The notes under the pieces are model-generated. The model was not told the origin of the DNA. It searched no databases and saw nothing but the letters and a program-made list of their open reading frames with translations. Shown piece after piece: positions 24,460 through 61,722 of a stretch of 64,000 nt of DNA. How positions within the stretch are numbered: position 1 is the first letter of the stretch; each line of letters starts with the position of its first letter. Origin of the DNA: Acytostelium subglobosum (lineage: Eukaryota); contig NW_012236524.1 of assembly GCF_000787575.1 (NCBI RefSeq), positions 679,665-743,664 of the forward strand, written 5' to 3'. The translations under genes and the position numbers were made by a program.

Positions 24460-24846
24460 TTGACCAAGTTGATTGATTAGTGTGCATGTGTGTGTGTCGC
24501 CTTGATGTAGAGATAGGACTCATACATGTTATGGTAGTACAAGACATTGGACAATGAAGTACCTGTCAATCGGGGTGTCTTGGTGGGACAAGCCAATCTT
24601 TGAATTGATGTGATCACCCACAAACCCCACTGATCACACACTGTTTTGATCAAGACCGTTTTGTTTGATTAAAAATACTTTTAAAGATGTGATCCCAACA
24701 TTCAATCTGATTATTCGTATCGACAATTCATACTTATACATAAACATATAATATATATATACTCCACTCACTCAATCAATCAACTCAAATCAAATCAAAT
24801 CAAACTCGCACCGACATAATCGATTGTGTCTGGTAACGCGACAAAT

Positions 24847-27527
24847 ATGACTACTACGACTACACCACCAACGCCAACAACCACTGACACTCCAACTATA
24901 ACGACAAATACAATGAATAACCCTTCTGCAGACCCGATAATGACAACGACAACGACAACGACCAACTCAAACACAACAAGTGGACCATCCTCACCACAGC
25001 CATTCCTCAACACATTTGAGAACTCAATCGATCTGCTCGACTCACTGGACGACTCGCCACAGTTCAGGAAGCAACTACGCGACAATGAGCAAAGTGTCGA
25101 GGAACTAAGCCAGAGCATCAAGAAGCTGCTCAAGTCTGCGCGCCAGACCTGCGACCTGGGCAACGAGTACAACAACTCATTCCGCACATTCACCGACGAC
25201 GTCCTGTCCTACAGACTGGATGCGCGCGTCAATGACGAGGTGCTCGAGAAGGGCATGATCAAGTTCGCCACCGCCCTCAAGGAGATTTGCAACTATCGCG
25301 AGATGCTGCACATTGAGATGGAGGCGCTGCTGCACAACCCTCTCAGCGAGTTTGCCGACAACGACTTGAAGCAGGTCAAGGAGCTGTACAAGAAGTACGA
25401 CAAACACAGTCAGCTACATGACACGGCCGCACTCAAGCTCGGCCAGATCAAGAAGAAGCACTCCAATCGCCTCGAGGAGGTCGGTCAGGAGGTGACGGAC
25501 ATCTATCGCACACGCATAGCACACAGCGTGGACTTGGTGGAGAAGATGAATGAGCTTCAGGCACGTCGTCGCTTCGAGTTCCTCGAGATGTTCTGCGTGT
25601 ACCTTCAAGCACAGTCCACCTTCTTCCACCAAGGCTACGAGTTGTTCCGCGACCTTGAGCCACAAATGCGCATCTTCTCCAGCTACCTCCAATTCACCAG
25701 GAAGCACTTTGATGAGACAAAGCATCAACAAGAGGTACTCAAGCAAGATATTGTCAATGTATGTCATCGTAGCGTTCATTCTATCGATCAAACAATCATG
25801 CATGCTGACACCTGGAACCATTCCACCCCACCACCTCCATCACGTGATCGATCAATCAATTCAGAGATCCAACCTCTCATCCTCCCCATCACAAACACAT
25901 ACACATCCTGCCAGCAAGCAGTTCTTGCAGGGTCGTGCATCAGATGTAGCTTGCAAGAAGGGTTACTTGTTCAAGAAGTCCAGCAGCAAGTTCAGCAGAC
26001 GCTTCTTCTCATGCGATGATGGCAAGCTATCATATTACAAGAGTGGCAATGTATGATGATGGTCGATGATGACATTGGTGATAGTGATGAGGGACTGGTC
26101 TAACATACCTTACCCCACCTTAGGAGCATACACCGAGACATACATTCAAACTATTCTTGACAACAGTGCGCATTAGAGAGGACTTGGAGCATAGGAACTG
26201 CTTTGAGGTACTCTCACCTGACAACTCACTCATTCTACAGGCAGAGTCAAATGAGAGCATGATGGAATGGGTACAAGTGTTACAGAACTCGACGGCCAAT
26301 CTCATCAACAACATCTCACCAACCTCAGACAGACCCAGACTACATAGCTCTGGTGGTGGACACAACAATAACCACCACAACAGTGGCAACAGTGGCAACA
26401 ACAGCGTAAATGGTACATCATGTAATATAGTCAATAGTAACAATAACAGTAACAACAGTAACAGTAACAATAGCGGCAACAATAACAACAACGATCTCAC
26501 TCAATCATCATCAACAGAGGATGAGGATACACCACCACTGGCCATTCTACGAAGTTTGGACGCGTCAAACAAGATGTGCTCGGACTGTGGCGCAAAGGAT
26601 CCAGACTGGGCCTCAATCAACTTTGGCTCAATCGTCTGTATCGATTGCTCAGGCGTACATCGCAGTCTTGGAGTGCACATTACCAAAGTGCGATCACTTG
26701 TCCTCGACAAATGGGAGCCAGAACTATTTGATGTATGTAGTAGCATGGAGAAGTGTGTCGCGCTGGATGACGATAGAGTAGTGAGTAGTGAACTAACAAA
26801 GTGATGGAATGGATGTGTAGATGATGAAGCGTATAGGTAACAACAAGGTCAATCAGATATTCGAGTCGAATGTGGCAGCGGACAGAGTTAAACCGACAGC
26901 AACATGTTCATTCGAAGCGAGAGCAAAGTGGATCAGGGACAAGTACGACAAGAGGTTGTTCGTGACCTTTATCGAGAAGCCACTGGTCGAACTCAACTCA
27001 GTATGTAGTCTGGCGACCAGGTATCATTTGGAACTATTCCACTCATTCACTCAATCAATCAATCATTCAATCAATCTAAATAGATGTTATACAAAGCAGC
27101 TGGAGAGGGCGACACTGGACACTTGCTGGATTTGATGGCCAGCGGAGCAGACCCTAATCACTACGACCCGGAACATATGTACAGATCACCACTGCACAGT
27201 GCAGTGGCCAATAACCAGGCGCAGAACCTTTGTTTGTTGCTACAGAATGGCGCGCAGACAGGTATACAGGACATCAATGGCAACACGGCATTGCACGTGG
27301 CCGCCGACTGCGGCAGTACGAAATGTAGCATACTGTTACTGATGAAGAATACGGCGCTACTAAACATCACCAATAAGGATAAGAGGACTGCACTTGACCT
27401 GGCTGTGGACAAAGGGCAGGTGGGCTGTGTGGCCATCCTTCGACTGTCACAGCTACAGCGAGATGAGAACAGACAATTCGACGACTGCTTTGCCGATGTG
27501 CTTCGAGGATTCTCTGGCAATAAATGA
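24847..27527 (+). CDS. ACAP/centaurin-beta-type ArfGAP (BAR + PH + ArfGAP + ankyrin repeats); 5 exons 24847..25758, 25865..26050, 26124..26732, 26821..27000, 27084..27527 (about 776 aa)
   Basis: An N-terminal Thr-rich tract is followed by a BAR-like coiled region. The PH domain is [30 protein letters not shown]...WVQVLQNS. The ArfGAP zinc finger is [46 protein letters not shown]. Ankyrin repeats are [37 protein letters not shown]. All four introns have GTATGT/GTATGA donors, AG acceptors and consistent phases. Confidence 0.8.
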
Positions 27528-27574: not shown

Positions 27575-29233
27575 TTACTTATGGGTTTGGATTGGAAGTG
27601 GCTTGTCAGAGATGACACATGTGGCACACCAATCAAGATATTTAATACTGTCTAAGTCTTCGATCTTTGTCCATATGTCTTCATCGATGGAGTACCTATA
27701 GTTACCATCGCCTCCCTGAAGCACCAACAATGTGCCAGGCTGTGCTGTACATGTCACCAAATGACCAAATATGGTGTTTTCTTTATCGTCTTTTTCATCG
27801 TTATCTATACTAATCCACTAAATCATCATCCTCTTGATCATCATCCTCTTGATCATCATCCTCTTGATTATCATCCTCTTGATCAAAATCCTCATTGATG
27901 AGGGGACCATCATTCTTGGTTATTGGCATTGGTGCCAACTCTGTTGAATGCAGTTTGATGGACACATTGTCTATTGATAATGGCATGCTGATGAAGCGAC
28001 CTCCAACAAACAGGATGTATATATTGTCCTCGTAGAGGGTGCATGACTCAACCTCGCCCTCCAACTCACACCAATGCACTTGCTCTCTTCGGTTGAGATC
28101 AAATGCATTGATTGAATTGGTAGAGGATTCTTTGTCAATGCAATACAACCAGTTGAAATGTTTGAACATGAACGTGACACATATTCCGTCATCGAGATCT
28201 CCAAGATGAGAGAGAGCCTGTTGTTGCTGCTCCTCAGATTTGCTAATGTTGAATGTGTACACTCGAGAGTGACTGTCACTTTTATCATCATCGTCTTGTG
28301 TTGTGTGGCCAATCAGATAGATGAGTTTTTCTCCATCAATCCAGGCTGCGGACATGTATTCGAATCCTCTTGGGTTGACAACTCCTTCTAGTTGGATGTC
28401 ATGGCGCCAACTGCGATCGATAACCGAGAATACAGAGTATGTTTGTGGAATGGAATAATAGTCCCCTGTTCCAAAGACGAAAACATCACCATGAGCGTAC
28501 ACAGCTGATGAGCCTAGTGTGTATATGTAGCCTAATCCATCGATATCCTCCTGTGTCCACTTGTTGGTCAATGGTCAGAATAGAGCGTAGGAGTCATGGT
28601 CGACGCACATGACATGGTTCTCCTCGATCGAGGTCATGAGTACTTCTCAGAGTCTTCCAACAGTTGGAAACTGGACCTCAGTTGATCTTTGATGCCATTT
28701 AATCTGTTGGTGTCAAACTTTGCCTTCAGCCGTCGAATGAGTTGGTGTTGTAGAGTCATCTGGACCAATGTCAACAGTTCAATGTCGGTGATCTTAATAA
28801 CAGAGTCTGGTGATGTTGGCAACGTTTGTTCAATGAACTGATCGAGTGATGAGCATGATGCAATCGCTTCAATCATCTCATTGTCCAATTCAACATCGTT
28901 ATTGTTGTCCACAGTTTGTTTGAATGTATTGGTAATGGTCTTGATCTCATTTATGATGCCAAGCATTGTTGTTTGAGTCTGTTCCAACCTGTCATTAATT
29001 GTTGAGTTGAACTTATGTTCCTCAATGACAAGCATGTTATGCAGTTGTTTGAATTGCTCCGATACATCCATTGTCGATTGAGTCAATGTCTGATGTGTTG
29101 CAGCCAGTTGTTGAAGAGCACTCCATAACAACTTCAATCTCAATTTTGACGAGTCATTGTATTGACGCTTTTCAATCAATGATCTTATATGCTTGACACA
29201 TTCAACATCATGTCTCTTGTGGCTTGAACTCAT
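27575..29233 (-). pseudogene. BBK-A: decayed copy of the B-box/coiled-coil/Kelch-propeller family (nonsense codon plus at least 2 frameshifts, no in-frame start)
   Basis: Homology to the intact paralogs is continuous across three different frames (ORFs 28634..29233, 27810..28571, 27575..27760). Where paralogs have a Ser codon in the TLFSP(L/M)TNKWT motif, this copy has TGA at 28575..28577. The B-box region is preceded by polyQ/K but has no ATG. Confidence 0.55.
27826..27890. repeat. 15-nt tandem repeat (atcatcctcttgatc)x4 encoding an acidic (DDQED)n linker in BBK-A
   Basis: Read directly; analogous poly-Asp linkers (DVDDVDDDDDD) occur at the same position in the other family members. Confidence 0.7.
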
Positions 29234-29499
29234 ACACAGTTCACAAACCAGACAGTTACAGTCGATACATATAAACCTCTGATCATTGAGTGACTGACAA
29301 CAGTGTTTCTGTGATTGTTGCCTCTTTTGTTGCTTCTTTTGTTTCCTCTTTTGTTGTTGTTGATGTTAAATTTGAAGCAAAAAGTCCAAAAGCAACTAGA
29401 ATGGCTGGCCAGCCATTTTACTTTGGCGATTTCTTTGGCTCTCACTTTGGCAAGGCAAACAAACAAACAAACATTGTTTATTTAGTATGTCGCTAGATG

Positions 29500-31353
29500 T
29501 TAAGTATGGATTGGACGTGGCTTGTCAGAGATGACACAGGTAACAGTCCAACCAAACTCTGCTACAACCATGTCTTGGACTTGGATCTTTGACCATGTGT
29601 CATTCTCGATGGAGTACTTGTAGTTCATATCACCGCCTTTGAGTACCAACAATGTTCCAGGTTCCGATGTTGATGTTACCATGTTATTATATCTTTGTTG
29701 TTGTTGATCATTAAGATTGTCATCATCATCATCGTCGACGTCATCAACATCAACAACATCCTTCCTCTTTGTAATCGTTGTTATTGATGCCAACTCTGTC
29801 GATTGGTCCAACGTCGTCTTCTTCCTGGACAATGACATGCTGATGAGGCGACCTCCCACAAACAGGATGTACAGCTTGTCCTCGTGGAGTGTACATGCGT
29901 CGACATCATCCTCCAGATAGCACCAATGCACTGGCTCTTTGGTCTTAAGGTCGAACACACTGATTGAATGATGGTCCGAATCATTGTCCAAGCAATACAA
30001 TGTGTCGAAATGTTTGAACAAGTAAGTCGTTATGCAGCCTTCTTCGAGATTGCCGACATGAATGAGATGATCCGGGTTGTCAATGTTGAGGCTGTACACT
30101 CTAGACTGTCGATAGCCACCAGGGGTCACGTGGCCAATCAAATAGATGAGCTTGTCTCCATCGAAGCATGCAGCCGACATGTATTCGAACCCATCTGGAT
30201 CGACTACTCCATCGAGTGGTATGGCGTGGCGCCATTGCCCATCGACCACCGAGAATACAGAGTATGTAGGTGGCGGGTTGTCATCAACACTTGTTCCAAA
30301 CACATAGATATTGCCACGAGCGTACACTGAAGATGAGCCACGTTGGTAGATGTTGTCAATTCCCTTGAGTCCGATTAATGTCCACTTGTTGGTCATTGGC
30401 GAGAACAGTGTGTAGGATGTGCTATTGATGAACATGACCTGATTCTCGAGTTCGTCAGTGTACTTGTCCGAGTCCTCCAACAGCTGAAAGCACAAGCTCA
30501 GTTGATCATTGATGTCATTCAATCTGTTGGTGTCAATCTGGACTGAGAGGGGTCGAACTAGTTGATGCTGTGACGTGTTCATCGTTTGAATTGTGCGCTG
30601 GACCAATGTCAGAAGTTCAATGTCTGTGATCCCAATCACAGGGTCAGATGATGAGGTTGTTGGGTATGTTTGTTCGATGAACTGATCGAGTGATGTGCAT
30701 GATGTTATTGATTTAACCAATTCAATATCAATGTCTGTGTCTGTCTCCATCAGGTCATCGTTGTTGTCAGCGGCCACAGTCTGTTTGAATATATTGTTGA
30801 TGTTCTTGATCTCATTGATGATATTGTGAATGTTTGTTGATGTTTGTTGTAATCTGTCATTGATTGTTGAGTTGATCTTGTGTTCTTCAATCACGAGCAT
30901 GTCATGTAGTTGTTTGAAGTAATCACTGACACTCTTGCTAGTGTTGGTCAATGTCTGATGTGTTGAAGCCATTCGTTGTAGGGTACTCCACAACAACTTC
31001 AATCTTGATGTTGACGATTCATTATATTTATGTTGTTCAATCAATGATCTTAAATGCTTTACACTATCTGCATCATGTCTCCTATGACTTGAGCTCATAC
31101 ACAGTTCACAAACCAGACTATTACAGTCGATACATATGAATCTCTGTTCATTGAGGGTCTGGCAGCAGTACTGCGGCTGTTGTAGTTGCTGTTGCAGTTG
31201 TTGCTGTTGCTGTTGCAGATTTTCTATATCCATCTCTACTGGCATATCTTTGAAACATATTACTTGTATTTGTTTGTTGTGCGTGGTTTGAAACTTTTTT
31301 GTTTTGTTTCCGCTTCTCTTGCCCTCAACCTCCCCCAACTTCCGTGTTTCCAT
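29500..31353 (-). CDS. BBK-B: B-box zinc finger + coiled-coil + Kelch-type beta-propeller protein (intact, up to 617 aa; the true start may be the internal MPVEMDIENLQQ)
   Basis: CCQTLNEQRFICIDCNSLVCELCMSSSHRRHD has B-box C/H spacing. It is followed by a heptad-rich coiled coil (LKLLWSTLQRMASTHQTLTN...), then propeller strands (VYARGNIYVFGT, KLIYLIGH, KLYILFVGG), a poly-Asp linker and a final blade GGDMNYKYSIENDTWSKI. Confidence 0.7.
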   Translation of the reverse strand: METRKLGEVEGKRSGNKTKKFQTTHNKQIQVICFKDMPVEMDIENLQQQQQQLQQQLQQPQYCCQTLNEQRFICIDCNSLVCELCMSSSHRRHDADSVKHLRSLIEQHKYNESSTSRLKLLWSTLQRMASTHQTLTNTSKSVSDYFKQLHDMLVIEEHKINSTINDRLQQTSTNIHNIINEIKNINNIFKQTVAADNNDDLMETDTDIDIELVKSITSCTSLDQFIEQTYPTTSSSDPVIGITDIELLTLVQRTIQTMNTSQHQLVRPLSVQIDTNRLNDINDQLSLCFQLLEDSDKYTDELENQVMFINSTSYTLFSPMTNKWTLIGLKGIDNIYQRGSSSVYARGNIYVFGTSVDDNPPPTYSVFSVVDGQWRHAIPLDGVVDPDGFEYMSAACFDGDKLIYLIGHVTPGGYRQSRVYSLNIDNPDHLIHVGNLEEGCITTYLFKHFDTLYCLDNDSDHHSISVFDLKTKEPVHWCYLEDDVDACTLHEDKLYILFVGGRLISMSLSRKKTTLDQSTELASITTITKRKDVVDVDDVDDDDDDNLNDQQQQRYNNMVTSTSEPGTLLVLKGGDMNYKYSIENDTWSKIQVQDMVVAEFGWTVTCVISDKPRPIHT

Positions 31354-31530
31354 TTTTCAGTTTCCTGCTGCCACACTCTTACAAAGTTTGGAGACACTCT
31401 TCAACAACTCTTTGATTCAATATTAATTAATCAATCAAACAACCAATCAACAATATTTAAAGTTTATTATATTCAAATATTCATATTGTTATATTTTGTG
31501 ATAAGATAAAGAGGTCTTTTTTTTCTCTGA

Positions 31531-32654
31531 TCAAAAGTTATCGCTCAATCTTGTCCATTGTCCAGTTTCAATTTCATAATTCCAGTTCTCCCCTACACCA
31601 AGAAGAAGGTGTATCCCAACATCCTGGGAGTTTGGACTGTAGTGCAACTTATGGCAATGTTTGATGTTCTTCTTTTTAGGCGGGAATTGGAGAGTTTCGA
31701 CATGTTTGGTCAGGAGGCACACACGGAGGAACGTGCTGTCAGTCAGAACATATATATGATTTCCATCGAAAGAGAGTCTTCTCCAAGGTTTAGCCCGTCG
31801 ATGTGAGTTTCCCATTCCAACGTGTTGACGTTGAGTGCCAGAATTGTTGAGTGATGTATCTGGTGATAAAACCCACCAACGACATAAAGTTTTCCATCGT
31901 GAAAGAAGGCACCAGCCGTGTTACAAGGTGATGGTAGCGATCCAAATCGGCTGAACTCTTGTGTCATGATGTTGAAACGTTCGACAAGAGCAGAGGATTT
32001 TCCATTAACAATGCCACCCACCAAATAGATATGGTGATCTCCATCGAAGCAAGCTGAGGTTGAACGCCTTCCCTCTATTCCAACGATGGGTATATCGTTG
32101 TACCAACGTTGCTCCAGAGTTGAGAAGCGGGCATAGGTGTTCGGGCTCTCTTTGCCGCCAAAAACATAAACATTGTCTCCATCGTGCACCATTGCATTGG
32201 TGGCACATGTACGGCCCTTGAAGTCATATATCAAGATCGGTGTTGATGAGAGTGGATTGAACAAGGTGCAACTATCTTCAGTGAGGGAGAGGACTTGATA
32301 GCACGGGTGGGGATCAATAAATTTGAAGCAAGATTTGATGTTCGACTTGATGCTCTCCAACAATGGGTAACTCGTACTGACTTGGATATGACTGAGCTTG
32401 ATGCTCATCGGCTTCTGTGACATTCGCTCACTCTCCTGAATGGCGTGCAGCAACTCAATGTCATTATAATCAACAACATTGATTGATTGGTAGATGATGA
32501 GACCGCCACTTGCGATGAACTGCTCCATTGACGCTGATTCATTGATTAAAGTCGTCACGCTGTTCATGTCAAGTGCATCATCATCATCATCATGGCCAAC
32601 ATTTGAAGGCTTGTCCAACAAGGTACCATTAGTCAACGATATGATGTGGGACAT
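31531..32654 (-). pseudogene. BBK-E: divergent Kelch-propeller family member lacking the B-box/coiled-coil module, with the C-terminal blade in a shifted frame (likely disrupted, or possibly a short undetected intron)
   Basis: Classic Kelch doublets are present: NVYVFGG, HIYLVGG, KLYVVGG, RWYNDIP. The terminal blade (GENWNYEIETGQWTRL) is only in the frame of ORF 31531..31815, which overlaps the body ORF 31743..32654 out of frame. Confidence 0.4.
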
Positions 32655-33778
32655 TTCCTCTTTGATTCCCTTTTACACTTGCTTGGCACATGGACACTCA
32701 AATATATGAGTTTGCCTCCGTCATATAAAGCTGCAGTCGGGTATATAAAATCACCATCTTCCTCAATTCCTTCGAGTGGGATGTTATGGCGCCATTGACG
32801 ATCGGCCACAGAGAACACAGAGTATGTTGGTGGAAAGGTAGCACTCGCACGCGTGCCAAACACATAGACATTGCCACGTGCGTACACTGCCGAGGTGCGA
32901 TGTTTGTATATCGCGCCAATCCCATACAGTCCGACTTTTGTCCACTTGTTGGTCAATGGTGAGAACAGAGTGTATGAGCCTTTATCACTGATGAGCATGA
33001 CACTGTGATCGAGGTTATTGGTGTACTTCTCAGAGTCCTGGAATAGTTGGAAACTTGAACTCACTTGTTCCTTGATATCATTAATTAGGCGAGTGTCAAC
33101 CCAACACTTTGCAGTCAATGGTTGAAATAGATGATGCCGTACATTCATGTGCTGAGCAGTGCTTTGAACCAATGTCAGCAGTTCAGTGTCGGTGATCATC
33201 GACCCATCTGATGATGTTGATTCTGAAGTTGGAAATGCTTGTTCGATGAACTGATCGAGTGATGAGCATGTTGTTATCATATCAATGTCTTAGCTCAAAC
33301 CATCATCGTTGTTGTCCAAGGTACTTGATGTTGATTGTTTGAACAGGTTGTTGATGTTCTTGATCTCATTGATGATATTGTGAATGTTTGTTGCTGTTTG
33401 TTGCAATCTGTCATTGATTGGTGATGTGATCTTGTGCTCCTCAATCACCAGCATGTCATGCAGTTGTTTAAATTGCTCCGATACATTCTTGCTCGATTGA
33501 GTCATTGTCTGATGTGCTGAAGTCAGTTGTTGAAGATTACTCCATAACAACTTCAATCTTGATGTTGACGATTCATTATATCGGCGTTGTTCAATCAATG
33601 ATCTCAAATGATTGACACTCTCAACATCATGTCTCTTATGAGTTGAACTCAAACATAGATCACAGACCAAACAATTACAATCGATACATATGAACTTATG
33701 ATCATAATTTGGTGACCTACAACTACAATACTGCTGCCGATGCTGTTGTTGCTGAGGTTGATTATTTGATGTAGACAT
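32633..33778 (-). pseudogene. BBK-C: family copy with an in-frame TAA (33290..33292) between the coiled-coil and middle regions, and a propeller truncated after about 2 blades
   Basis: ORFs 33290..33778 and 32633..33280 are in the same frame and separated only by TAA: ...DNNDDGLS*DIDMITTCSSLDQF. Homology ends at KLIYLSVHVPSKCKRESKRKCPTSYR*, right where BBK-E begins in another frame. Confidence 0.55.
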
Positions 33779-33856
33779 TTAATATATATCTGATTATGTA
33801 TCTGTATCTTCTTTCAAAGTTCGTGAATGAATGAATGATTCGAAAGTGAAGGGGGA

Positions 33857-35494
33857 CTATTTAGTTTGAATTGGATGCGGCTGGTCGTTGATGACACACA
33901 TGACAGACCATCCAAATTCATCTATCTTACTGTCTTTGCCGTGCTTGATCTTCGTCCACTTGTTTCCTTTGATCGAGTACTTGTAGTCCATATCACCACC
34001 TTGAAGCACCAACAATGTTCCAGGCTCTGATGTTGATGGAACCATATTGTAATATCCCTTTCCTTTCTGTGCTTTCTCTGTTGTTGATGGTATTTGAGCC
34101 AACTCGACAATATGATCGATGGATATATTCCTCACGAGTGGCAAGCTACCTAGGCCACCATCTTCAAATAGAATGTACATATTGTCTTCGTATACTGTAC
34201 AGGCGTTGGCTTTGTCCTTGACGCAACACCAGTCAACCTGCTCACCGGTGCTCAGGTCGAATACATTGATGGTATGATCTTTCGAATCGTTGTCCATGCA
34301 ATACAAAGTATCGAAGTGTTTGAACATGTATGTCACTTTGTGACCTTCATCGATATAGCCAACTTGATTGAGACGTCGTTCCTTCTCTGGTGTGTCAATG
34401 TTGAAGCTGTACACTCTGGACTCCTCTTCTTCGTCATTTTGTCCAATCAGATATATGATCTTGTCTCCATCGTAGCATCCTGCAGTCAAGTATTTAAACT
34501 GATCATCTTCATCAACAACTCCTTCGAGAGAGATATCATGGCGCCATTGACCGTCGGCCACGGAGAACACAGAGTATGTTGGTGGCGGGTCATCGTTCTC
34601 ACCCGTACCAAACACATAGACATTGCCACGAGCGTACACTGCTGATGAGCCATATTTGTAGATCATGTCAATTCCTTCCTGTTCGACAATTGTCCATTTG
34701 TTGGTCAATGGTGAGAACAGAGTATACGAGTTATCGTAGATGAACATGACATTGTGATCGAGGTCATGCGTGTGATTCTCAGAGTCCTCCAACAGTTGGA
34801 AGCATGATCTCACTTGATCCTTGATGCCATTCAATCTCTTGGTGTCAAACTTAGACATCAATGGTCGTACAAGTTGATACTGTCCATTCATGTGCTGAAC
34901 AGTACTTTGAACCAATGTCAGCAGTTCAATATCGGTGATATCCTTCATTGAATCAGTTGACCCCTGTGACTTAGATGTAGATATTGATGGGAACGCTTGT
35001 TCGATGAACTGATCAAGTGATGAGCATGTTGTGATCATCTCAATGTTATTGTCCAAGTCCTCGTTATCCACGATACAAGATGTTGGTTTGAATATGCTGT
35101 TGATGCTCTTGATCTCATTGATGATATTGTGAATGTTTGTTGATGTTTGTTGCAATCTGTCATTGATTGTTGAGTTGATCTTATGCTCCTCAATCACCAG
35201 CATGTCATGCAGTTGTTTGAATTGCTCCGTTACATTCTTGCTCGATTGAGTCAATGTCTGATGTGTGGTTGCAAGTTGTTGAAGAGTGCTCCATAACAAC
35301 TTCAATCTCGATGTTGACGAGTCATTGTATTGACCTTCCTCTATCAATGATCTTATATGCTTGACACTCTCAACATCATGTCTCTTGTGACCTTTGCTCA
35401 TACATAGATCACAGACCAAACTATTACAATCGATACATATAAACTTATGCTCGATGTTAAGTGTACGACAACAATCCATCTGGTCTGTGTCCAT
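33857..35494 (-). CDS. BBK-D: intact B-box + coiled-coil + Kelch-type propeller protein (545 aa)
   Basis: MDTDQMDCCRTLNIEHKFICIDCNSLVCDLCMSKGHKRHD is B-box-like. It has the same coiled-coil and propeller blocks as BBK-B (VYARGNVYVFGT, KIIYLIGQ, MYILFEDGG) and the terminal blade EPGTLLVLQGGDMDYKYSIKGNKWTKI. Confidence 0.7.
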   Translation of the reverse strand: MDTDQMDCCRTLNIEHKFICIDCNSLVCDLCMSKGHKRHDVESVKHIRSLIEEGQYNDSSTSRLKLLWSTLQQLATTHQTLTQSSKNVTEQFKQLHDMLVIEEHKINSTINDRLQQTSTNIHNIINEIKSINSIFKPTSCIVDNEDLDNNIEMITTCSSLDQFIEQAFPSISTSKSQGSTDSMKDITDIELLTLVQSTVQHMNGQYQLVRPLMSKFDTKRLNGIKDQVRSCFQLLEDSENHTHDLDHNVMFIYDNSYTLFSPLTNKWTIVEQEGIDMIYKYGSSAVYARGNVYVFGTGENDDPPPTYSVFSVADGQWRHDISLEGVVDEDDQFKYLTAGCYDGDKIIYLIGQNDEEEESRVYSFNIDTPEKERRLNQVGYIDEGHKVTYMFKHFDTLYCMDNDSKDHTINVFDLSTGEQVDWCCVKDKANACTVYEDNMYILFEDGGLGSLPLVRNISIDHIVELAQIPSTTEKAQKGKGYYNMVPSTSEPGTLLVLQGGDMDYKYSIKGNKWTKIKHGKDSKIDEFGWSVMCVINDQPHPIQTK

Positions 35495-35523
35495 TACTAT
35501 TATCTTATTATCACAATGATTGA

Positions 35524-37437
35524 ATGAATGTAAAACCGAATGAAGATGAGTTAGTGGATATTATCATTCTCTCACTAATTCACTCAACTCACACGATCGA
35601 TCAGATCATATATATAATAATGGAGTTACCATTAAATGTCATCAGGAATGTACTGATGTACCTTTGGGATAATGATGTACCCTCAATTGACTGTGCATGC
35701 TTGAGCCTCACATGCAAGAGAATGTTCAAAGTCGTACACTCAACTCACATCAGACTACATCGACATCGTTTGAGATGGAGTATACTCGATAAGACACATG
35801 ATGAATATGACAAAGATATACATACCAAGACAGTCGACACATCACAATCACTATCACTTGGCTACTCATACAATGAAGTGATCACAAGTGATACTCTTCC
35901 ACCGAACTTGACATCGCTGACCTTTGGTCACTTTTTCAATCAGGTGATAGATGTTGGATGCCTCCCTCAATCAATTGAGACACTTCACTTTGGTGACAGC
36001 TTCAATCAACCTTTGAACAAACATGTACTGCCTCGCGCACTAAAGTCTCTGTACTTTGGCGTCGCCTTCAATAATGATGTTATGCATCTTCCAAATGGAT
36101 TACATTCACTTGTGTTCAAGGATAGGTTCAAACGAATGATCGCGCCAGGTGACCTACCTGATTCAATCACATCATTGTCGTTCTCAGACTGTAATGCCGA
36201 ACAAACTATCATCCCTGGCCTGATGCCCTCGTCACTCACCTTCCTCAGACTCGGGGCAAGCTTTGACCGTCCATTGACAGTTGGTGCCTTGCCATTCGGC
36301 CTCACATCACTGTCGTTTGGATACTGTTTCAATCAAGTACTGATACCTGGATCACTACCAGACAGCATCACAGACCTATTAATGGGCAATAGTTTCAACA
36401 CAATCATTCAGCCAGGATGTCTTCCGCAATCACTCCTGACCCTTACGTTTGGTTATCAATTCGATCGCGAACTGGAGATTGGAGTACTACCTCAATCAAT
36501 CACTCATATATCTTTTGGATGTTGTTATAATCGATACATTGGTCCAGGTGTAATCCCATCATTGGCGCTGAGGTCCTTGAAGATGGGACATGAATTCAAT
36601 CGTGAGTTGACTCCAGGCACGCTCCCAACCACCTTGACCAAGTTGTCGCTCATCCAGTACGACACACAACTTGTGCCAGGCTCATTGCCATCATCACTTA
36701 CATGTCTGGACCTGGGCAATTGTTTTGACAAGCCGTTCACACGAGGACTGCTGCCCGACTCCATCACCAAGCTCATCTTACCAAGTGCCTACAATCAATC
36801 ATTTCTACCTGGTGCACTACCATCATCACTTCTCAAACTAAGGATTGGACGAGTGTTCAATCAAATGATCATGCCAGGTGCCTTGCCTCAGTCGCTCACA
36901 TGTTTGATCTTTGGACGAAACTTCAACATGATGATGCCGCCCGGCGTGCTACCACCGTCACTCACCGACCTCAGACTTGGAGAACAGTACAACATGATAC
37001 TGGGCAAGGATGTACTACCCAATGGATTGAAGAGTCTGACTGTGTTTGACAAGTTCTATCGTACATGTTCGGCGGGACCACTGGGCAGACTGCTAAAGGG
37101 CAAGCATGTACTACCAACATCACTTTGCAACATCACCTTGACAACACATACAACACCAGATGATACAATACCAGATATAACCAAGAGTTTCCTACCATTC
37201 ATCCATCAATTTTTAAAGACAATATGCTGTTCACAACATCTACGAACCAACAATATCAATAACTTTAGGATTATCTACTCTTATGAGTATATAAAATCTG
37301 GTGCACTATACATTGAACTTAGAAGGATTGGACCTGTACCTGAACATGGACATGGAACATTCATCTGCAAGTTTGGATGTTACAAGATTCCCCAACAACG
37401 TCATTTCAGCAAATGGCGACCCCTGATCATTGTGTAA
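35524..37437 (+). CDS. FNIP-repeat protein with an F-box-like N-terminus (probable true start MELPLNVIRNVL at about 35620)
   Basis: More than 15 FNIP repeats (LPPNLTSLTFGHFFNQVIDVGCLPQSIETLHFGDSFNQPL...) are preceded by LPLNVIRNVLMYLWDNDVPSIDCACLSLTCKRMFKVV, which resembles an F-box. Confidence 0.75.
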   Translation: MNVKPNEDELVDIIILSLIHSTHTIDQIIYIIMELPLNVIRNVLMYLWDNDVPSIDCACLSLTCKRMFKVVHSTHIRLHRHRLRWSILDKTHDEYDKDIHTKTVDTSQSLSLGYSYNEVITSDTLPPNLTSLTFGHFFNQVIDVGCLPQSIETLHFGDSFNQPLNKHVLPRALKSLYFGVAFNNDVMHLPNGLHSLVFKDRFKRMIAPGDLPDSITSLSFSDCNAEQTIIPGLMPSSLTFLRLGASFDRPLTVGALPFGLTSLSFGYCFNQVLIPGSLPDSITDLLMGNSFNTIIQPGCLPQSLLTLTFGYQFDRELEIGVLPQSITHISFGCCYNRYIGPGVIPSLALRSLKMGHEFNRELTPGTLPTTLTKLSLIQYDTQLVPGSLPSSLTCLDLGNCFDKPFTRGLLPDSITKLILPSAYNQSFLPGALPSSLLKLRIGRVFNQMIMPGALPQSLTCLIFGRNFNMMMPPGVLPPSLTDLRLGEQYNMILGKDVLPNGLKSLTVFDKFYRTCSAGPLGRLLKGKHVLPTSLCNITLTTHTTPDDTIPDITKSFLPFIHQFLKTICCSQHLRTNNINNFRIIYSYEYIKSGALYIELRRIGPVPEHGHGTFICKFGCYKIPQQRHFSKWRPLIIV

Positions 37438-37823: not shown

Positions 37824-39269
37824 GTGGTATACTTCTTGGACACATTCATGCGCATCTTCAATGGACCCAATGGTCACCAACATCACAGATTGTTGTCAGA
37901 GCCATTCATTGTTGAGGATTCAAGATATAGAGGCCATGGATTAAATGATATAATTAGACCATGGTCTATTGTGGACATTGATGACCGAGCGAGTGAAGTG
38001 CACTCAATCAATATCAACAACAACAACAACACACGACCACAAATACCTCTGACAATAATCAGAAGTATAATTAGAATGCTCATACTGGATCATACGACCA
38101 CAACGATATGAAAGGTGTCTCTGGCAACAGTGATCTCGACTTTCCATCGAGAGGTGGCGTCAATCATTTCAAACAACCCTTTACCAACACTATGTGTAGT
38201 TATGTCCTTCCTCATACCTCATATTTGTTCGCGATTCTGTCTGTTCAAGAACTTGCGCAAACATATCCATGCAAATGACATTGTTGATATAGACATAGAC
38301 CACCTGCCACAATTTCTCGACCAGCTTGAATCATTGACATTGCCATACTCTGGCTATAGAGCCCTGGATCAATCGGAGCAATACCGATACATGAAGATAT
38401 TTGGCTTGAATCAACTCAAACGAATATACTTCATTGAGTCTGCCATCCCTCGTAATCGCCAAATCAAATGCTCCGGTATTGATTACGTGGTTGTGGTCAA
38501 TGGTGTACCAGAGAATGACGCGCCAAATGCTCTCCCACTGTGGCTCGATCACTATGTGAAACATTGTCCAAACTTGGAGAGCGTGTCCATCAATGCGCTC
38601 TATCCTGAAGGGCCATTTCCCAAGAATGTATCCAACAACATCATCCATCATCACCTTCAACTCTGGTACCCAAAATACATGAGGCTTCATCATGGACGAC
38701 TTGCCAATGTTAGCCACATCACATCACTCTTTGTACCATTCAAATCAAAAAATCTCCAATATCTTCCATTGTTCATCAACATCAACATACTCCACATCAC
38801 AGTCTATTCTCATTATCGGACCTCTCAAGATCAAGTGATGGATGTTCTTCAACAACTGTACAGATCTGCCGGCAAATTGACATCACTGATTGTTGTAGTG
38901 CCGGCAATCAAGGACACAATCCATTTGCTTCCAAATGTTCGCAATAGTATCCAATCGATAGAGATCAGATTGACTGATGATGAAGTTGCAATCACGTCCA
39001 CTCTTGATGGCCTAACTCATCTTGACATTCTACGCAAACATTTGGATCGAGCTATCTTTGATCGACTCACTCGACTCTCCATTCAATATGTTCTTGAAGG
39101 TCATGTAATACCATTGCATCGAGACATCCTTCTCAAACACTTGATGCTGCCACTTCACTTCCTTCATTGTGTTGGACTGAATTCTACCGACAGCGACCTA
39201 CTACATTACCTGTCCCTGTCACTCTCACTGGTGTGGCGTGATCCAACAACAACAACTACACATAGATAA
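37824..39269 (+). CDS. Hypothetical protein; two same-frame ORFs (37824..38111 and 38115..39269) separated by a single TGA at 38109..38111
   Basis: ...LDHTTTTI-TGA-K-VSLATVISTFHREV.... The long ORF has no ATG near its 5' end; it opens with GTG directly after the stop. The gene model is unresolved; an intron spanning the stop, an upstream exon (ORF 37553..37801), or a pseudogene are all possible. Confidence 0.35.
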
Positions 39270-41656: not shown

Positions 41657-43330
41657 ATGATAATGAATGATCATGATTATGATGATCAACTTATCATCAA
41701 TGATAGTAATAGTAAAATGACATCGACAACATCAACTTCTTCAACAACTTCAACAACTTCAACAACTTCAACAACTTCAACAACTTCAACTTCATCATCA
41801 AGAATGAACGACATCGACGAGAATAATAATAATAAGATTGTTGTTGTAGACTTGATATCAATGCCATTGGAGATTTTGGATAGGATACTTCATTCACTCA
41901 ATCAATCAACTTTATATACTTTATCATTGGTCAATGCACATTGGCACAAGATTATAATGTCAATGTGGCATACAATAGACTTGTCCAAGGCACACAGTCA
42001 CTACACGCATCTCAGTGCCAAAGTAAAGCTCTCTCTTCAGACTCTAAAGAGGTCAGGTGCTGCAATACATTCACAAGAGAACGGCAATGGAAATGGCAAT
42101 GGCAACGGCAACGGCAACGGCAACGGAAGTGTCAATGGTAATGGATCATCAGCTTCAAAGTGGATGGCAAACTTGGAGTCGATAGTGAACAACTTGGTGT
42201 CTAATTATGGCTTCCTCATACCGGGGCTGGGCTCGGATTCACCTCCAATCTTCCAGCGACATAATCATAACTTGCTAAAGTCAAAGGCCGCCCAACAACA
42301 AATAGCCAGTCAGTTTGAATTGCGAATCGATCGTTTCTTTGAGGACATGAGCACGCGTTACCAACGCGTCGAAGTACTAGACCTGAGTGGCTGCACCGAC
42401 CTCAAGTTGGCATCTCTCTCACTACTCGTTCGCCAGTTCTCGTCCACGCTAACCAAGCTCGTCACGCGTCGTTGCAAGTCTGACACAATGACTGATTCAG
42501 GATTCGCCCAACAAGTCGTGGCGATGGCGCCTAAACTGCGTACACTGTGTGTTGGCGAGATGCCAATGATTGGCGACGAGACCATGGAAGCACTATGCTC
42601 CACAACACCGGATATTGAGTGTTTGGGCCTGGCCCGATGCCACAAGGTCACCGACCGTGGGATCCACGCACTGGCCGCCAGCCAGCTGTGCACTCGAATG
42701 CGTATACTGGGCCTTAACCATCTCGCACACCTGTCCGACGGCGCCATCCTTCAGCTGGGCATGGCCTGCAACAACTTGGTTATATTCAGCGCGAGCAACC
42801 TCAGAGAGTTGTCTGCCGACACGATGGCATCGATCTTCCTGGCATGTCCACGCCTGGGCTCAATCGACTTGGGCGGCTGCGAGAACACAGACGACACGGC
42901 ACTCGAAGCCATCTCGATCAACTGTCACGAACTCTTCCAACTCAATGTCAGTCGATGCAAGCGACTCACATCACACTCAATCAATCTGGTGGTCAAGCAA
43001 TGCAAGCAACTGCGTATACTGTTTGTATCGCGTACGGCAATTGACGATGATTGTCTGTTGAATGCCACGGAACACCTACAGCTCGAGGTACTATATGCCA
43101 TGGGTTGTCCCAATCTCACTGATCGCACTGTGCAAGGACTGCTCAAGCTGGGCAACGAGCGATTGATTCGCATGAACATCAACTTGTTGTCATGTCCCAA
43201 CGTCTCACAATCACTAGTGTCGATACTACAGCATCTGACCAAGCCGACGCCAGGCGAGGGCCGCGGCGCGTGCATTGGTGGATCTGATGCGAGTTGCACG
43301 AGCAGCTCGCTTCTAATGGACGACGAATAA
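41657..43330 (+). CDS. F-box/LRR-repeat protein (FBXL-like), 557 aa, single exon
   Basis: The F-box is LEILDRILHSLNQSTLYTLSLVNAHWHKII. Cys-containing LRRs follow: LDLSGCTDLKLASLSLL, LGLARCHKVTDRGIHALA, IDLGGCENTDDTALEAI, LNVSRCKRLTSHSINLV. It also contains (TSTTS)n and (NG)n tracts. Confidence 0.75.
   Translation: MIMNDHDYDDQLIINDSNSKMTSTTSTSSTTSTTSTTSTTSTTSTSSSRMNDIDENNNNKIVVVDLISMPLEILDRILHSLNQSTLYTLSLVNAHWHKIIMSMWHTIDLSKAHSHYTHLSAKVKLSLQTLKRSGAAIHSQENGNGNGNGNGNGNGNGSVNGNGSSASKWMANLESIVNNLVSNYGFLIPGLGSDSPPIFQRHNHNLLKSKAAQQQIASQFELRIDRFFEDMSTRYQRVEVLDLSGCTDLKLASLSLLVRQFSSTLTKLVTRRCKSDTMTDSGFAQQVVAMAPKLRTLCVGEMPMIGDETMEALCSTTPDIECLGLARCHKVTDRGIHALAASQLCTRMRILGLNHLAHLSDGAILQLGMACNNLVIFSASNLRELSADTMASIFLACPRLGSIDLGGCENTDDTALEAISINCHELFQLNVSRCKRLTSHSINLVVKQCKQLRILFVSRTAIDDDCLLNATEHLQLEVLYAMGCPNLTDRTVQGLLKLGNERLIRMNINLLSCPNVSQSLVSILQHLTKPTPGEGRGACIGGSDASCTSSSLLMDDE
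41741..41796. repeat. 9-nt coding tandem repeat (acaacttca)n
   Basis: Read directly; encodes STTSTTSTTSTTSTTS. Confidence 0.8.
42083..42126. repeat. (GGCAAC/GGCAAT)n hexanucleotide repeat encoding (NG)n
   Basis: ggcaatggaaatggcaatggcaacggcaacggcaacggcaacgg is read directly. Confidence 0.8.
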
Positions 43331-56408: not shown

Positions 56409-58117
56409 ATGGTAGAGGACACTCCTTATCAACATCAACACCATCACCATCACCATCACCAACATCATCAACATGGCGATCACCCTACAGTATTGGAGAG
56501 AGTCAACAGTTTTAGATACCAGGTGGAATCAAAGACCAGATACTTGTTCCTTTTGGACATGGGCAAGGCTGAGATCAACATCAATCATCACTATCACAGG
56601 AGTAAACTAGGTGTAATAGTCAGTACAATAGTACTAATAATCATAGCATTCTTTATTATAATCACTGTAGCACAGTTCTCAAAAGGTAACATTATCAACA
56701 TGTTCCATCAATCAATCACATGATAAATCACTCACTCATACAATCAATCAAAACAGGAACACCATCAATCATATATAATGCAAATATACCTTCACAGTAC
56801 AATCCACTTCTTACACCAGAGGTTGGTGTTGTATTATTACGCAGTGGAGCTATCACAAAGATTGATCCGGCTCACGTCAGTGTGGTGTTCCGATACATCA
56901 CCATCACTGATCAGGACACAAAGCCACGCGTGGTCGAATACCTCAACGTAACAAAGTGCACATTCTCCGATAATCAGCCATCGGAAGACGCTGCGTCCAA
57001 TGTGTTGACCGACTCGGCGTCATGCCCACTCGAGCAGGTGGTGATGTCGGGCTCCTACGCCATGAACACCTACCGATACCTGGACATTGGCGTCGTGCGC
57101 TGCACATGCGCACCCAACGACACATCATGCGGTTGCTCGTCCGACGCAGACTTTAAGAAGTACTACTACAACGACACTGCCATCAACATACTCATCTCTG
57201 AGCACATACCCTCGTACTCAGTGTTTGCGCGTCGATTCAATCTCTTCCCTCCCAACCCCAACTTTGCGCATCCACCAACCATTAAGAACTACACTCAATC
57301 CATCTATTGGTACAGCTCCCAATACGTCGTTCAAAAGGTCGACATCTCAATCAGACGCAAGAGTATATACAACGCGCCAAGATTCATCTTTGATTATGGT
57401 TTTGGAGAGTTCTACAGTGTCGGAGAGGTATGTCATTCATTCGATATTAATCAATCAACTCAATCACTCACTCGATCACTCATTCAATCAATCGATCAAT
57501 AGATTATTTCGAGACAGGTCGATGCTTCAGCTGCTGGAAATGTCTTATTCAAAGCTTTCGTTAGACTTGATCAATATGAGAATCAGGAATTTCGTCAGAG
57601 CCCTGGCTTCTTGCAATTGATTGGATCATGGGGTGCACTCTGGACATTCTTCAGCATCACAGCACTTCAATTGGTGAGGATGTATAACAAGAGGATGTAT
57701 CATTCATCTTTGGCCAACTCTGCACCATCATCTCCACGTGTTGCTGGTAGTCGACTGCCCCCACATCAGCATCACACGACAAACAATGATCATCATGAAA
57801 GTCACCAGCAACATGGTGACATCCAACTCAAATCAATGCGTAGTTCAAGGAATATATTACATGCCAGTAGCACCAGTTTGGAGAAGTTTGCTTGGGAGAC
57901 CAGCAGGACGCAACCGTCTGGCGGTCTGACCTCGAGCTATGACCTCAATGACAGCAACAATCACATTGTACACAGCGACAACTATCTAAACTCTACCGAC
58001 TTTGGCAGCAGCGAAAACATGGCGAACAACAACAACAACAATGGAAGCAGCAGCAATATGAACAACAATAATAATCTTAGTCAACAGTTTGAGAACACCA
58101 ATGTAGAGAGGGGATAA
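56409..58117 (+). CDS. P2X receptor-like ATP-gated channel subunit; exons 56409..56685, 56757..57427, 57503..58117 (about 520 aa)
   Basis: Topology: cytoplasmic His-rich N-terminus, TM1 LGVIVSTIVLIIIAFFIIITVAQF, a roughly 300-aa Cys-containing ectodomain, TM2 LIGSWGALWTFFSITALQLVRMY. The pre-TM2 segment NVLFKAFVRLD and YNAPRF align with P2X4 LIKAYGIRFD (ATP-binding Lys) and YNFRFAKYY. Intron phases 1 and 0 were verified. Confidence 0.65.
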
Positions 58118-58159
58118 TCCCCATACTTGTTGGAACAATAAAATAAAATGTATTCATAT

Positions 58160-61504: not shown

Positions 61505-61722
61505 TTGAAACAAATATATATTGTTGTTAACTAACTAACTAAAATTAAATGGATTAAAATGAAATACTCTTGGTATTTATAACAATGTGAGATGTTCCTT
61601 AAGCGTGTCACATCTAGATGTATACCCATCCAGATCCATTTTATCTGGATGGGAATGTGTTGATTATATATTTATTTTTTATTTATTTAATGTCTTTCGA
61701 ACACTTGAAGAATAAGGAAAGA

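What the first reader, a model, noticed from the sequence alone, without database searches (positions are those of the whole stretch)
27575..35494. Tandem array of five RING-less TRIM-like genes (B-box + coiled-coil + Kelch-type propeller), two intact and three decaying
Five consecutive minus-strand paralogs share one architecture: a B-box-type zinc finger (C-x2-C...C-x2-C-x4-H-x2-H, e.g. CIDCNSLVCDLCMSKGHKRHD), a long coiled coil, a linker, a roughly 6-blade beta-propeller with Kelch-like GG/hydrophobic doublets, a poly-Asp/Glu insertion, and a last blade after the acidic linker (GGDMxYKYSI). BBK-B (29500..31353) and BBK-D (33857..35494) are intact. BBK-A, BBK-C and BBK-E carry nonsense codons, frameshifts or truncations. 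The paralogs are clearly divergent from one another, and the array is flanked by two FNIP-repeat genes. B-box + coiled-coil + propeller with tandem birth-and-death turnover is the signature of TRIM-like innate-immunity or ubiquitin-adaptor families in animals. Such an array in an amoebozoan appears uncharacterised and deserves attention.
Basis: partly seen in the sequence, partly recalled or inferred. Interest (0 to 1): 0.8.

Follow-up and report, generated by a model that had tools for sequence, protein, structure and literature searches.

The report
Tandem RING-less B-box/coiled-coil/Kelch genes
Five head-to-tail copies (two intact, three dead) of a social-amoeba gene family of roughly 100 members, undescribed in the papers searched, whose proteins look like animal TRIM proteins without the RING finger and with a Kelch propeller; their function is unknown.

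Summary
The window is Acytostelium subglobosum LB1. Positions 27575-35494 (minus strand) carry five paralogs. B (29500-31353) and D (33857-35494) are intact ORFs. A, C and E are pseudogenes with several independent lesions that are not introns.

- E belongs to a different subfamily and is truncated at both ends.
- Only one FNIP gene flanks the array.
- The acidic insert is in A and B only.
- Copies A-D have lost one of the eight zinc ligands (His to Leu/Pro).

The array is a small part of a lineage-specific family: about 100 gene models in A. subglobosum and about 50 in Heterostelium album. No Dictyostelium discoideum protein was seen among the hits that could be named.

B versus D gives dN/dS of about 0.25 with no window above 1, so purifying selection is shown and an arms race is not. 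Function as a TRIM-like dimeric adaptor is inferred, not shown. I rate it a new variant of a known kind, of moderate interest.

The parts
33857..35494 (-). BBK-D: intact ORF of 545 aa. It corresponds to GenBank SAMD00019534_052050, whose gene model clips the B-box.
   Evidence: ORF. P0001 is 100% identical over 90% of the ORF. AlphaFold model 2 has mean pLDDT 77.5.
35378..35470 (-). B-box of D, residues 9-39: C9, (L12), C20, C23, C28, C31, H36, H39. Seven of the eight family zinc ligands are kept; ligand 2 is His>Leu.
   Evidence: Invariant columns of head alignment A3. Motif scan of the family. Pfam zf-B_box E 3.5e-3 for D, and best 4.9e-8 in the family. PDB profile hits to TRIM B-boxes. pLDDT 83-85.
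35090..35329 (-). Predicted coiled-coil helix of D, residues 56-135. It contains no Pro or Gly.
   Evidence: A single 80-residue helix in both AlphaFold models. Local heptad registers are clear at 56-98 and 105-135, with a register shift between them. The alignment to TRIM3 extends from the B-box into this helix.
34802..35056 (-). Helical linker of D, residues 147-231. It carries the family motifs SC-SLDQFIEQ and D-ELLTLVQ.
   Evidence: Helices 147-156, 160-167, 188-202 and 218-231. Conserved columns F163 and L191.
33893..34750 (-). Six-bladed Kelch propeller of D, residues 249-534. The C-terminal strand 531-534 closes blade 1.
32685..33778 (-). BBK-C: pseudogene. It has an ATG at 33778, a B-box, a coiled coil, a linker and blades 1 to about 2.5. 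There is an in-frame TAA at 33290-33292, and the 3' end is deleted.
   Evidence: 68% identical to D over D residues 9-349. Stop codon and breakpoint located.
31531..32680 (-). BBK-E: relic of a different subfamily with canonical Kelch repeats. It lacks the B-box and coiled coil, has a 1-nt frameshift near 31766, and lacks the closing strand.
   Evidence: 27-30% identical to B and D. 49% identical to P0044 residues 138-508. Pfam Kelch_6 5e-17. Reading frames.
29500..31353 (-). BBK-B: intact ORF of 617 aa. It corresponds to SAMD00019534_052040, whose gene model splices out part of the B-box. The B-box is at 31075-31164, and there is an acidic insert between blades 5 and 6.
   Evidence: ORF. P0002 sequence. 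Pfam Kelch_6 at 29.4 bits (cut-off 25.3) and zf-B_box at 20.7 bits.
27575..29365 (-). BBK-A: pseudogene with at least four lesions. There is no initiator ATG; an indel pair gives TGA at 28634-28636; there is a TGA at 28575-28577; and there is a TAG at 27810-27812 with a frame change.
   Evidence: Three tblastn pieces in frames -1, -3 and -1. DNA alignment. Walk upstream in frame.
27822..27899 (-). A 15-nt tandem repeat, five copies, that encodes the (QEDDD)n acidic loop of copy A.
   Evidence: Tandem Repeats Finder.
35524..37437 (+). Divergently oriented FNIP-repeat gene of 637 aa, with a weak F-box-like N-terminus. This is the only FNIP gene next to the array.
   Evidence: Pfam FNIP E 1.9e-115 over 13 repeats.

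Best explanation
Shown:
- The region is a compact head-to-tail cluster of five members of a lineage-specific multigene family. Spacers between units are 78-177 bp.
- The family is found in group-2 dictyostelids, Acytostelium and Heterostelium.
- Its proteins consist of a TRIM-type B-box (type 2), a roughly 80-residue helix, a helical linker and a six-bladed Kelch propeller. They have no RING, BTB or F-box.
- B and D are intact and have evolved under purifying selection (dN/dS about 0.25 at dS about 0.9).
- C is the sister of D (dS 0.44). It was killed by a nonsense codon and by an out-of-register deletion, which also removed the 5' part of the neighbouring copy E. E belongs to a different subfamily.
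- A carries four or more disabling lesions.
- The locus therefore records tandem duplication followed by decay (birth and death).

Inferred mechanism:
- As in TRIM proteins, the long helix pairs into a dimer, antiparallel by analogy. This places one Kelch propeller at each end as the ligand-binding module.
- The B-box provides further self-association.
- With no catalytic or E3-recruiting domain, the proteins would act as non-enzymatic adaptors or scaffolds for protein ligands.
- Each paralog would differ mainly in its propeller loops.
- A link to protein turnover or autophagy is possible by analogy with the D. discoideum B-box/FNIP protein AreA, but nothing here shows it.
For: Anatomy and lesions:
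-.

Domains:
- Pfam on the window copies.
- Pfam on 35 family members: Kelch_6 in 33 of 35, zf-B_box in 22 of 35, and no RING, BTB or F-box.
- The head profile against the PDB returns TRIM B-box2 domains almost exclusively; the TRIM3 alignment runs into the coiled coil.
- AlphaFold model with pLDDT 77.5, B-box at 83-85, helix 56-135 and six blades.

Selection:
-.

Family size and distribution:
- 136 cluster representatives at E<=1e-30.
- Every named hit is A. subglobosum or Heterostelium album, apart from one Synstelium protein that matches only the Kelch part.
- About 97 of the 156 listed proteins are assigned to A. subglobosum.

Assembly quality:
- The assembly is a Sanger plus Illumina hybrid (PMC4334915).

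Analogy:
- AreA binds Atg101 and damps autophagy (PMC4554924).
Against: - There is no experimental or expression evidence for B or D. The exact ORF products are not in the gene-position index.
- The GenBank models for both genes omit part of the B-box.
- Copies A-D lack one of the eight zinc ligands (His>Leu/Pro), so their B-box may be structurally weakened.
- Dimerisation and antiparallel geometry were not modelled.
- A single heptad register over the whole helix is not significant: 310 of 2000 shuffles reach the observed score.
- For the window copies alone, the Pfam B-box scores are below the gathering threshold.
Confidence: 0.6

Rival explanations
1. The family is a diversifying recognition repertoire, for innate immunity against bacteria or viruses or for kin/allorecognition, analogous to TRIM5 or fish finTRIM expansions. 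On this view the array's turnover reflects an arms race.
For: - The expansion is lineage-specific, with about 100 gene models.
- Family members sit in tandem clusters in both species: locus-tag runs.
- Three of the five copies in this array are pseudogenes.
- Two propeller segments approach neutrality: pN/pS 0.99 at residues 263-292 and 0.94 at 354-386.
Against: - Overall dN/dS is 0.25, and no window exceeds 1.
- There is no expression or induction data.
- There are no viral relatives or matching viral architectures.
- Large lineage-specific repeat-protein families, such as FNIP, are common in dictyostelids without any known immune role (PMC4334915).
Confidence: 0.15
2. The proteins are substrate receptors of a ubiquitin ligase, analogous to BTB-Kelch or F-box-Kelch proteins. 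The B-box/coiled-coil head would recruit a separate E3 or E2 in trans.
For: - The nearest structural neighbours of the propeller are CRL3 and CRL2 substrate receptors: KLHL7, KLHL12, KEAP1, KLHDC2 and KLHDC3.
- The head resembles TRIM E3 ligases.
- F-box-like genes lie nearby in the window, at 35524-37437 and 41657-43330.
Against: - No RING, BTB, BACK, F-box, SOCS or other E3-docking module is found in any of the 35 members scanned.
- B-boxes alone have no established E3 activity; this rests on general knowledge, not on a test here.
Confidence: 0.15
3. The 'pseudogenes' are artefacts, arising either from sequencing or assembly errors or from unrecognised introns, and all five genes are intact.
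For: - The public gene models in this region are unreliable: B and D are both mis-modelled.
- The single frameshift in E lies in a CT-rich run.
Against: - A has four or more independent lesions, including a point nonsense codon and the loss of its ATG.
- C and E are joined out of register, with hundreds of codons missing.
- The indels are 1-7 nt, with no intron-sized GT...AG insert.
- The assembly is Sanger plus Illumina.
- The genome's own annotators called no family member at A, C or E: only locus tags _052040 and _052050 were recovered here.
Confidence: 0.03
4. B and D are also effectively dead or neutral. On this view they are recently silenced members of a decaying cluster, and the locus has no current function.
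For: - Their B-box has lost a zinc ligand in all four related copies.
- The annotators could not build full-length models.
- No transcript evidence was retrieved.
Against: - Two ORFs of 545 and 617 codons remain open at dS of about 0.9, with dN/dS 0.25. This requires long-term purifying selection on both lineages.
- The propeller and coiled-coil cores are conserved against the family profile.
Confidence: 0.07

Closest known systems
Animal TRIM/RBCC proteins, especially class VII TRIM-NHL (TRIM2, TRIM3, TRIM32, TRIM71, Brat, Mei-P26) and the RING-less TRIMs (e.g. TRIM29, TRIM16, TRIM14)
   Same: - A type-2 B-box is followed directly by a long coiled-coil helix, then a linker, then a C-terminal six-bladed beta-propeller that would bind ligands.
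- The head profile hits TRIM29 and TRIM3 best.
- Like TRIMs, the family is expanded in tandem, with pseudogenes.
   Different: - There is no RING.
- Only one B-box is present.
- In copies A-D that B-box has 7 of 8 zinc ligands.
- The family is known only from two dictyostelid genera.
- Marin 2012 (PMC3503706) found only TRIM37-like genes outside animals, so common descent with TRIM-NHL is unlikely and convergence by domain shuffling is more plausible.
BTB-BACK-Kelch (KLHL/KBTBD) and F-box-Kelch substrate receptors
   Same: - Both have a six-bladed Kelch propeller at the C-terminus. These are the best structural matches: KLHL7, KLHL17, KLHL12 and KEAP1.
- Both have an N-terminal oligomerising module.
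- Both form large, lineage-specific families that evolve by birth and death.
   Different: - There is no BTB, BACK or F-box, and therefore no known route to a cullin.
- The N-terminal module is a B-box plus coiled coil.
Dictyostelid B-box/FNIP-repeat proteins (OrthoMCL OG5_126643: 241 in D. discoideum and 381 in A. subglobosum), including AreA (DDB_G0279871)
   Same: - An N-terminal B-box is fused to a C-terminal repeat domain.
- The family is hugely expanded in dictyostelids (PMC4334915).
- HHpred of AreA also points to TRIM B-boxes (PMC4554924).
- A FNIP gene abuts the array.
   Different: - The C-terminal module is Kelch, not FNIP.
- Whether the B-box and coiled-coil heads are homologous beyond the B-box could not be tested: the head-profile search returned only two family members.
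- The Kelch family was not seen in D. discoideum among the named hits.

Membership tests
TRIM / RBCC | N-terminal RING finger | tested here: not met
   - No RING-type Pfam hit in the window copies or in the 35 family members scanned.
- D's ORF starts 7 residues before the B-box, and only 29 bp separate it from the neighbouring ORF.
TRIM / RBCC | B-box zinc finger (type 2, with eight zinc ligands) | tested here: inconclusive
   - At family level it is met. 33 of 156 gene models carry C-x2-H-x7-C-x2-C-x4-C-x2-C-x4-H-x2-H, the best Pfam zf-B_box hit is 4.9e-8, and the PDB hits are TRIM B-boxes.
- The window copies A-D keep 7 of 8 ligands (His2 > Leu/Pro), and their Pfam scores of 17.9-20.7 are below the 24.1 cut-off.
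TRIM / RBCC | Coiled coil immediately after the B-box, forming an antiparallel dimer | tested here: inconclusive
   - An 80-residue helix with pLDDT 68-84 is predicted.
- The TRIM3 alignment runs into this helix.
- Local heptad patterns are present, but the whole-segment register is not significant.
- Dimer geometry was not modelled.
TRIM-NHL (class VII) | C-terminal NHL-repeat propeller | tested here: not met
   - There is no Pfam NHL hit.
Kelch-repeat superfamily | Kelch sequence motifs | tested here: met
   - Kelch_6 scores 29.4 bits for B (cut-off 25.3), 25.2 for D, and 61.6 for E.
- Kelch_6 is found in 33 of 35 family members.
Kelch-repeat superfamily | Six-bladed propeller closed by the C-terminal strand | tested here: met
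   - The AlphaFold strand pattern shows six four-stranded blades, with strand 531-534 joining blade 1.
- This rests on a predicted structure, not a solved one.
BTB-Kelch (KLHL/KBTBD) | BTB and BACK domains N-terminal to the Kelch repeats | tested here: not met
   No BTB or BACK hit in any member.
F-box-Kelch | N-terminal F-box | tested here: not met
   No F-box hit in the BBK proteins. F-box-like hits occur only in neighbouring genes.
Dictyostelid B-box/FNIP family (OG5_126643) | FNIP repeats C-terminal to the B-box | tested here: not met
   No FNIP hit in copies A-E. FNIP repeats occur only in the adjacent gene, 35524-37437.
   - B and D helped build the profile, so their match is by construction.
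- Independent members match end to end at E 1e-127 to 1e-30.
- A, C and E align to members over their surviving parts.

The most novel reading that the evidence does not exclude
Group-2 dictyostelids independently assembled a TRIM-like module, with a B-box, a dimerising coiled coil and a propeller but no RING. In Acytostelium they amplified it to about 100 genes, close to 1% of the proteome, as a variable intracellular recognition repertoire for immunity or self/non-self discrimination. This would be a convergent counterpart of the animal TRIM expansions.
Probability: 0.15. Interest if true: 0.75.

Novelty: new variant of a known kind. Interest (0 to 1): 0.45.

Why it matters
If the inferred mechanism is right, the TRIM-style arrangement of B-box, coiled coil and variable C-terminal binder would have arisen outside animals, on a Kelch propeller and without the catalytic RING. 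It then expanded by tandem birth and death. That would give a tractable non-animal system for asking what the B-box/coiled-coil scaffold does on its own, since dictyostelids are genetically manipulable.

It also flags a large family that D. discoideum-anchored comparative analyses would miss or would lump with the B-box/FNIP proteins (PMC4334915). On the practical side, the GenBank models for these genes systematically clip the B-box and should be revised.

If the proteins are just one more repeat-protein expansion, the finding is a routine annotation improvement.

Tried and rejected
- **Introns as the cause of the disruptions.** Rejected. The indels are 1-7 nt, there are point nonsense codons, and there are no intron-sized GT...AG inserts.
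- **Transcript or locus evidence through the look-up of encoding contigs.** Tried for D, B, P0004 and P0005. Nothing is on record.
- **Head-only profile search (A3) to ask whether B-box/FNIP proteins share the head.** It returned only two family members from 2880 candidates, so it is uninformative.
- **Viral relatives.** A pattern scan of IMG/VR found none. The BFVD fold search gave only generic propellers.
- **AFDB fold search for the taxonomic spread of the architecture.** The library was unavailable.
- **Supplement search of the genome paper for Kelch, B-box or locus tags.** No occurrences.
- **Single-sequence PDB search with D.** Only marginal hits, KAP1 at E 0.2. The profile was needed.
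- **Second FNIP gene on the flank.** Rejected.
- **Nearest-neighbour species assignment below 35% identity.** It proved unreliable when checked against names: P0078, P0082 and P0092 were mis-predicted. Thirty hits were therefore left unassigned.
Full report
**Source and observation**

A protein search with the D ORF returned SAMD00019534_052050 of Acytostelium subglobosum LB1 at 100% identity, on a 1.23-Mb contig. The window is therefore nuclear DNA of a group-2 dictyostelid. That genome was assembled from Sanger plus Illumina reads (PMC4334915).

tblastn of the two long ORFs against the whole window finds homologous segments only between 27584 and 35494, all on the minus strand. They fall into five units.

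- D (33857-35494, 545 aa) and B (29500-31353, 617 aa) are uninterrupted. They are 60% identical.
- The quoted motifs are present.

**The three disrupted copies**

Copy A (27575-29365):
- Its frame is open only from 29365, with TAA at 29366-29368. It has no ATG ahead of the B-box.
- A 2-nt deletion and a 7-nt insertion create TGA at 28634-28636 and shift the frame.
- TCA has become TGA at 28575-28577.
- A TAG at 27810-27812 and another frame change lie inside an acidic (QEDDD)5 tract. That tract is encoded by a 15-nt tandem repeat.

Copy C (about 32685-33778):
- It has its own ATG.
- It has an in-frame TAA at 33290-33292.
- It loses homology at about residue 349 of D.

Copy E (31531 to about 32680):
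- It begins about 137 residues into the family architecture, so it has no B-box and no coiled coil.
- It has TAA at 32673-32675 immediately upstream.
- It has a 1-nt frameshift near 31766.
- It stops before the closing strand.
- It is only 27-30% identical to B and D, but 49% identical to family member P0044.

E is therefore a relic of a different subfamily. The C/E junction is out of register, which points to a non-homologous deletion that removed the 3' end of C and the 5' end of E.

None of these lesions has the size or the boundaries of an intron. The genome's annotators called no family member at A, C or E. I regard the three pseudogenes as real.

**Domains**

Pfam on the window copies:
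- Kelch_6 scores 29.4 bits for B (cut-off 25.3), 25.2 for D and 61.6 for E.
- zf-B_box scores 20.7 and 17.9 bits, below the 24.1 cut-off.

The family context resolves the weak B-box signal:
- In 35 members, Kelch_6 hits 33 and zf-B_box hits 22, with a best E-value of 4.9e-8. No RING, BTB, BACK, F-box or NHL hit appears.
- 33 of 156 gene models carry a full C-x2-H-x7-C-x2-C-x4-C-x2-C-x4-H-x2-H signature.
- A profile of the head (B-box, helix and linker; alignment A3) searched against all PDB sequences returns TRIM B-box2 domains almost exclusively. The hits include TRIM29 (5.6e-6), TRIM3 (5.9e-5, with the alignment running about 50 residues into the coiled coil), XNF7, TRIM5, MID1/2, KAP1, PML, TRIM2, TRIM21 and TRIM72.

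In A3 the invariant residues are C9, C20, C23, C28, C31, H36 and H39 (D numbering). The second ligand is His in the other 12 sequences of A3. It is Leu in D, B and A, and Pro in C. An extra Cys sits one or two residues upstream in all four. The A-D clade has therefore lost one canonical zinc ligand. Whether the extra Cys compensates is unknown.

**Structure**

With a 35-sequence alignment, AlphaFold gives the following for D:
- mean pLDDT 77.5, and 83-85 over the B-box;
- one helix from residue 56 to 135;
- four shorter helices between 147 and 231;
- six four-stranded blades from 249 to 534, with the last strand closing blade 1.

A crude heptad test finds clear registers at 56-98 and 105-135 with a shift between them. 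A single register over the whole helix is not significant. The coiled coil is thus predicted, not demonstrated.

**Evolution of the array**

Nei-Gojobori estimates:

| Pair | dS | dN/dS |
|---|---|---|
| B-D | 0.87-0.92 | 0.25-0.26 |
| C-D | 0.44 | 0.47 |
| A-B | 0.87 | 0.34 |
| A-D | 0.88 | 0.31 |

- C and D are the youngest pair.
- The pseudogene comparisons are only mildly relaxed, which suggests recent inactivation.
- In 30-codon windows for B versus D, no value exceeds 1. The maxima are 0.99 (residues 263-292) and 0.94 (354-386), both in the propeller.
- Codons 107-136 of the coiled coil have pS of 0.12 against about 0.5 elsewhere, which hints at gene conversion.

Purifying selection on B and D is therefore shown. 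Diversifying selection is not.

**The family**

An exhaustive HMMER search of 1.84 billion cluster representatives gave 136 hits at E<=1e-30, many of them full length. Naming worked out as follows:
- Thirty representatives were looked up by name, and 29 further hits carried names. All are A. subglobosum or Heterostelium album PN500 ('B box-type domain-containing protein'). The one exception is a Synstelium protein that matches only the Kelch part.
- Counting names plus at least 35% identity to a named protein, about 97 of the 156 listed proteins are A. subglobosum and about 28 are Heterostelium. Thirty hits remain unassigned.
- Locus tags show further clusters in both species.

No D. discoideum protein appeared among the named hits. 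That absence is not proven, for two reasons: only the best 150 hits are listed, and the search profile lacked the B-box columns.

The genome paper anchored its family analysis on D. discoideum genes. It reports only a 'B-box and FNIP repeat' family, with 381 members in A. subglobosum. This Kelch family would have been missed or merged into that one. I found no paper describing it.

Marin 2012 found only TRIM37-like genes outside animals, including one in D. discoideum. The TRIM-like layout seen here is therefore more likely convergent domain shuffling than shared descent.

**Mechanism (inferred)**

By analogy with TRIMs, the long helix would dimerise and place one propeller at each end. The B-box would add self-association. 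Specificity would reside in the Kelch loops. Without a RING, BTB or F-box there is no evident catalytic or cullin link, so an adaptor or scaffold role is the most economical reading.

The only functionally studied dictyostelid B-box repeat protein is AreA. It binds Atg101 and restrains autophagy (PMC4554924). That gives one concrete, testable direction.

The immune or arms-race reading rests only on the family's expansion and turnover. The selection data do not support it.

**Context and corrections**

- Left of the array lies a BAR-PH-ArfGAP-ANK gene (24826-27527).
- To the right lies a single FNIP gene (35524-37437).
- Next comes an ORF with no recognisable domain (38115-39269).
- After that comes an F-box/LRR gene (41657-43330).
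- The GenBank models of B and D both damage the B-box. P0001 starts at Met32 and replaces the last 26 residues. P0002 splices out half the finger.

**Verdict**

The functional interpretation is unproven. The finding is a new variant of a known kind: a RING-less B-box/coiled-coil protein with a Kelch propeller, in a large family specific to a dictyostelid lineage. Interest is moderate, at 0.45.

Noticed in passing
window 33857-35494 and 29500-31353 (GenBank SAMD00019534_052050 and _052040): The public gene models clip the B-box. P0001 starts at internal Met32 and replaces the last 26 residues with 'TTTASAAVL'. P0002 splices out part of the B-box and the start of the coiled coil. Many other family models also start inside or after the B-box, so the family is systematically mis-annotated.
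   Followed up: partly
window 35495-35523: Only 29 bp separate the ATG of D from the first ATG of the divergent FNIP ORF. The second Met of the FNIP ORF (MELPLNV..., the start of the F-box-like stretch) is a more plausible start, which would leave about 125 bp for a shared promoter.
   Followed up: no
window about 35090-35180 (D) against about 30810-30900 (B), codons 107-136 of D: Synonymous divergence between B and D drops to pS 0.12 in the C-terminal part of the coiled coil, against about 0.5 elsewhere. This could be a gene-conversion tract or a nucleotide-level constraint.
   Followed up: no
window 27822-27899: A 15-nt tandem repeat, 5.1 copies at 92% match, encodes a (QEDDD)n tract in the loop between blades 5 and 6 of copy A. 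B has a different acidic insert at the same loop and D has none, so this loop is a hotspot for low-complexity expansion.
   Followed up: partly
window 35467-35473 (D), 31162-31167 (B), and the corresponding sites in A and C: All four related copies replace the second B-box zinc ligand (His) with Leu or Pro. All four also carry an extra Cys one or two residues before the first ligand (CC or CxC). Closely related paralogs such as P0006 and P0111 keep the canonical C-x2-H.
   Followed up: partly
window 38115-39269 (+): A 384-aa ORF has no Pfam hit at E<=1 and no similarity to the adjacent FNIP gene or to the F-box/LRR gene.
   Followed up: partly
window 24826-27527 (+): A multi-exon ACAP/centaurin-beta-type gene (BAR, PH, ArfGAP and ankyrin repeats) is split over at least four ORF segments. 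It ends 48 bp from the 3' end of copy A, so the two genes converge.
   Followed up: partly
P0062 (A. subglobosum SAMD00019534_063600, 1062 aa) and P0003, P0012: Some gene models fuse a coiled-coil/Kelch unit to FNIP repeats (P0062), or fuse two family units in tandem (P0003, P0012). These are either merged neighbouring genes or genuine fusions. Kelch and FNIP family genes appear to be neighbours at other loci as well.
   Followed up: no
window 58001-62000: G+C falls to 0.31-0.33 against about 0.44 for the rest of the window, with a positive GC skew at 58-60 kb. This was not examined.
   Followed up: no
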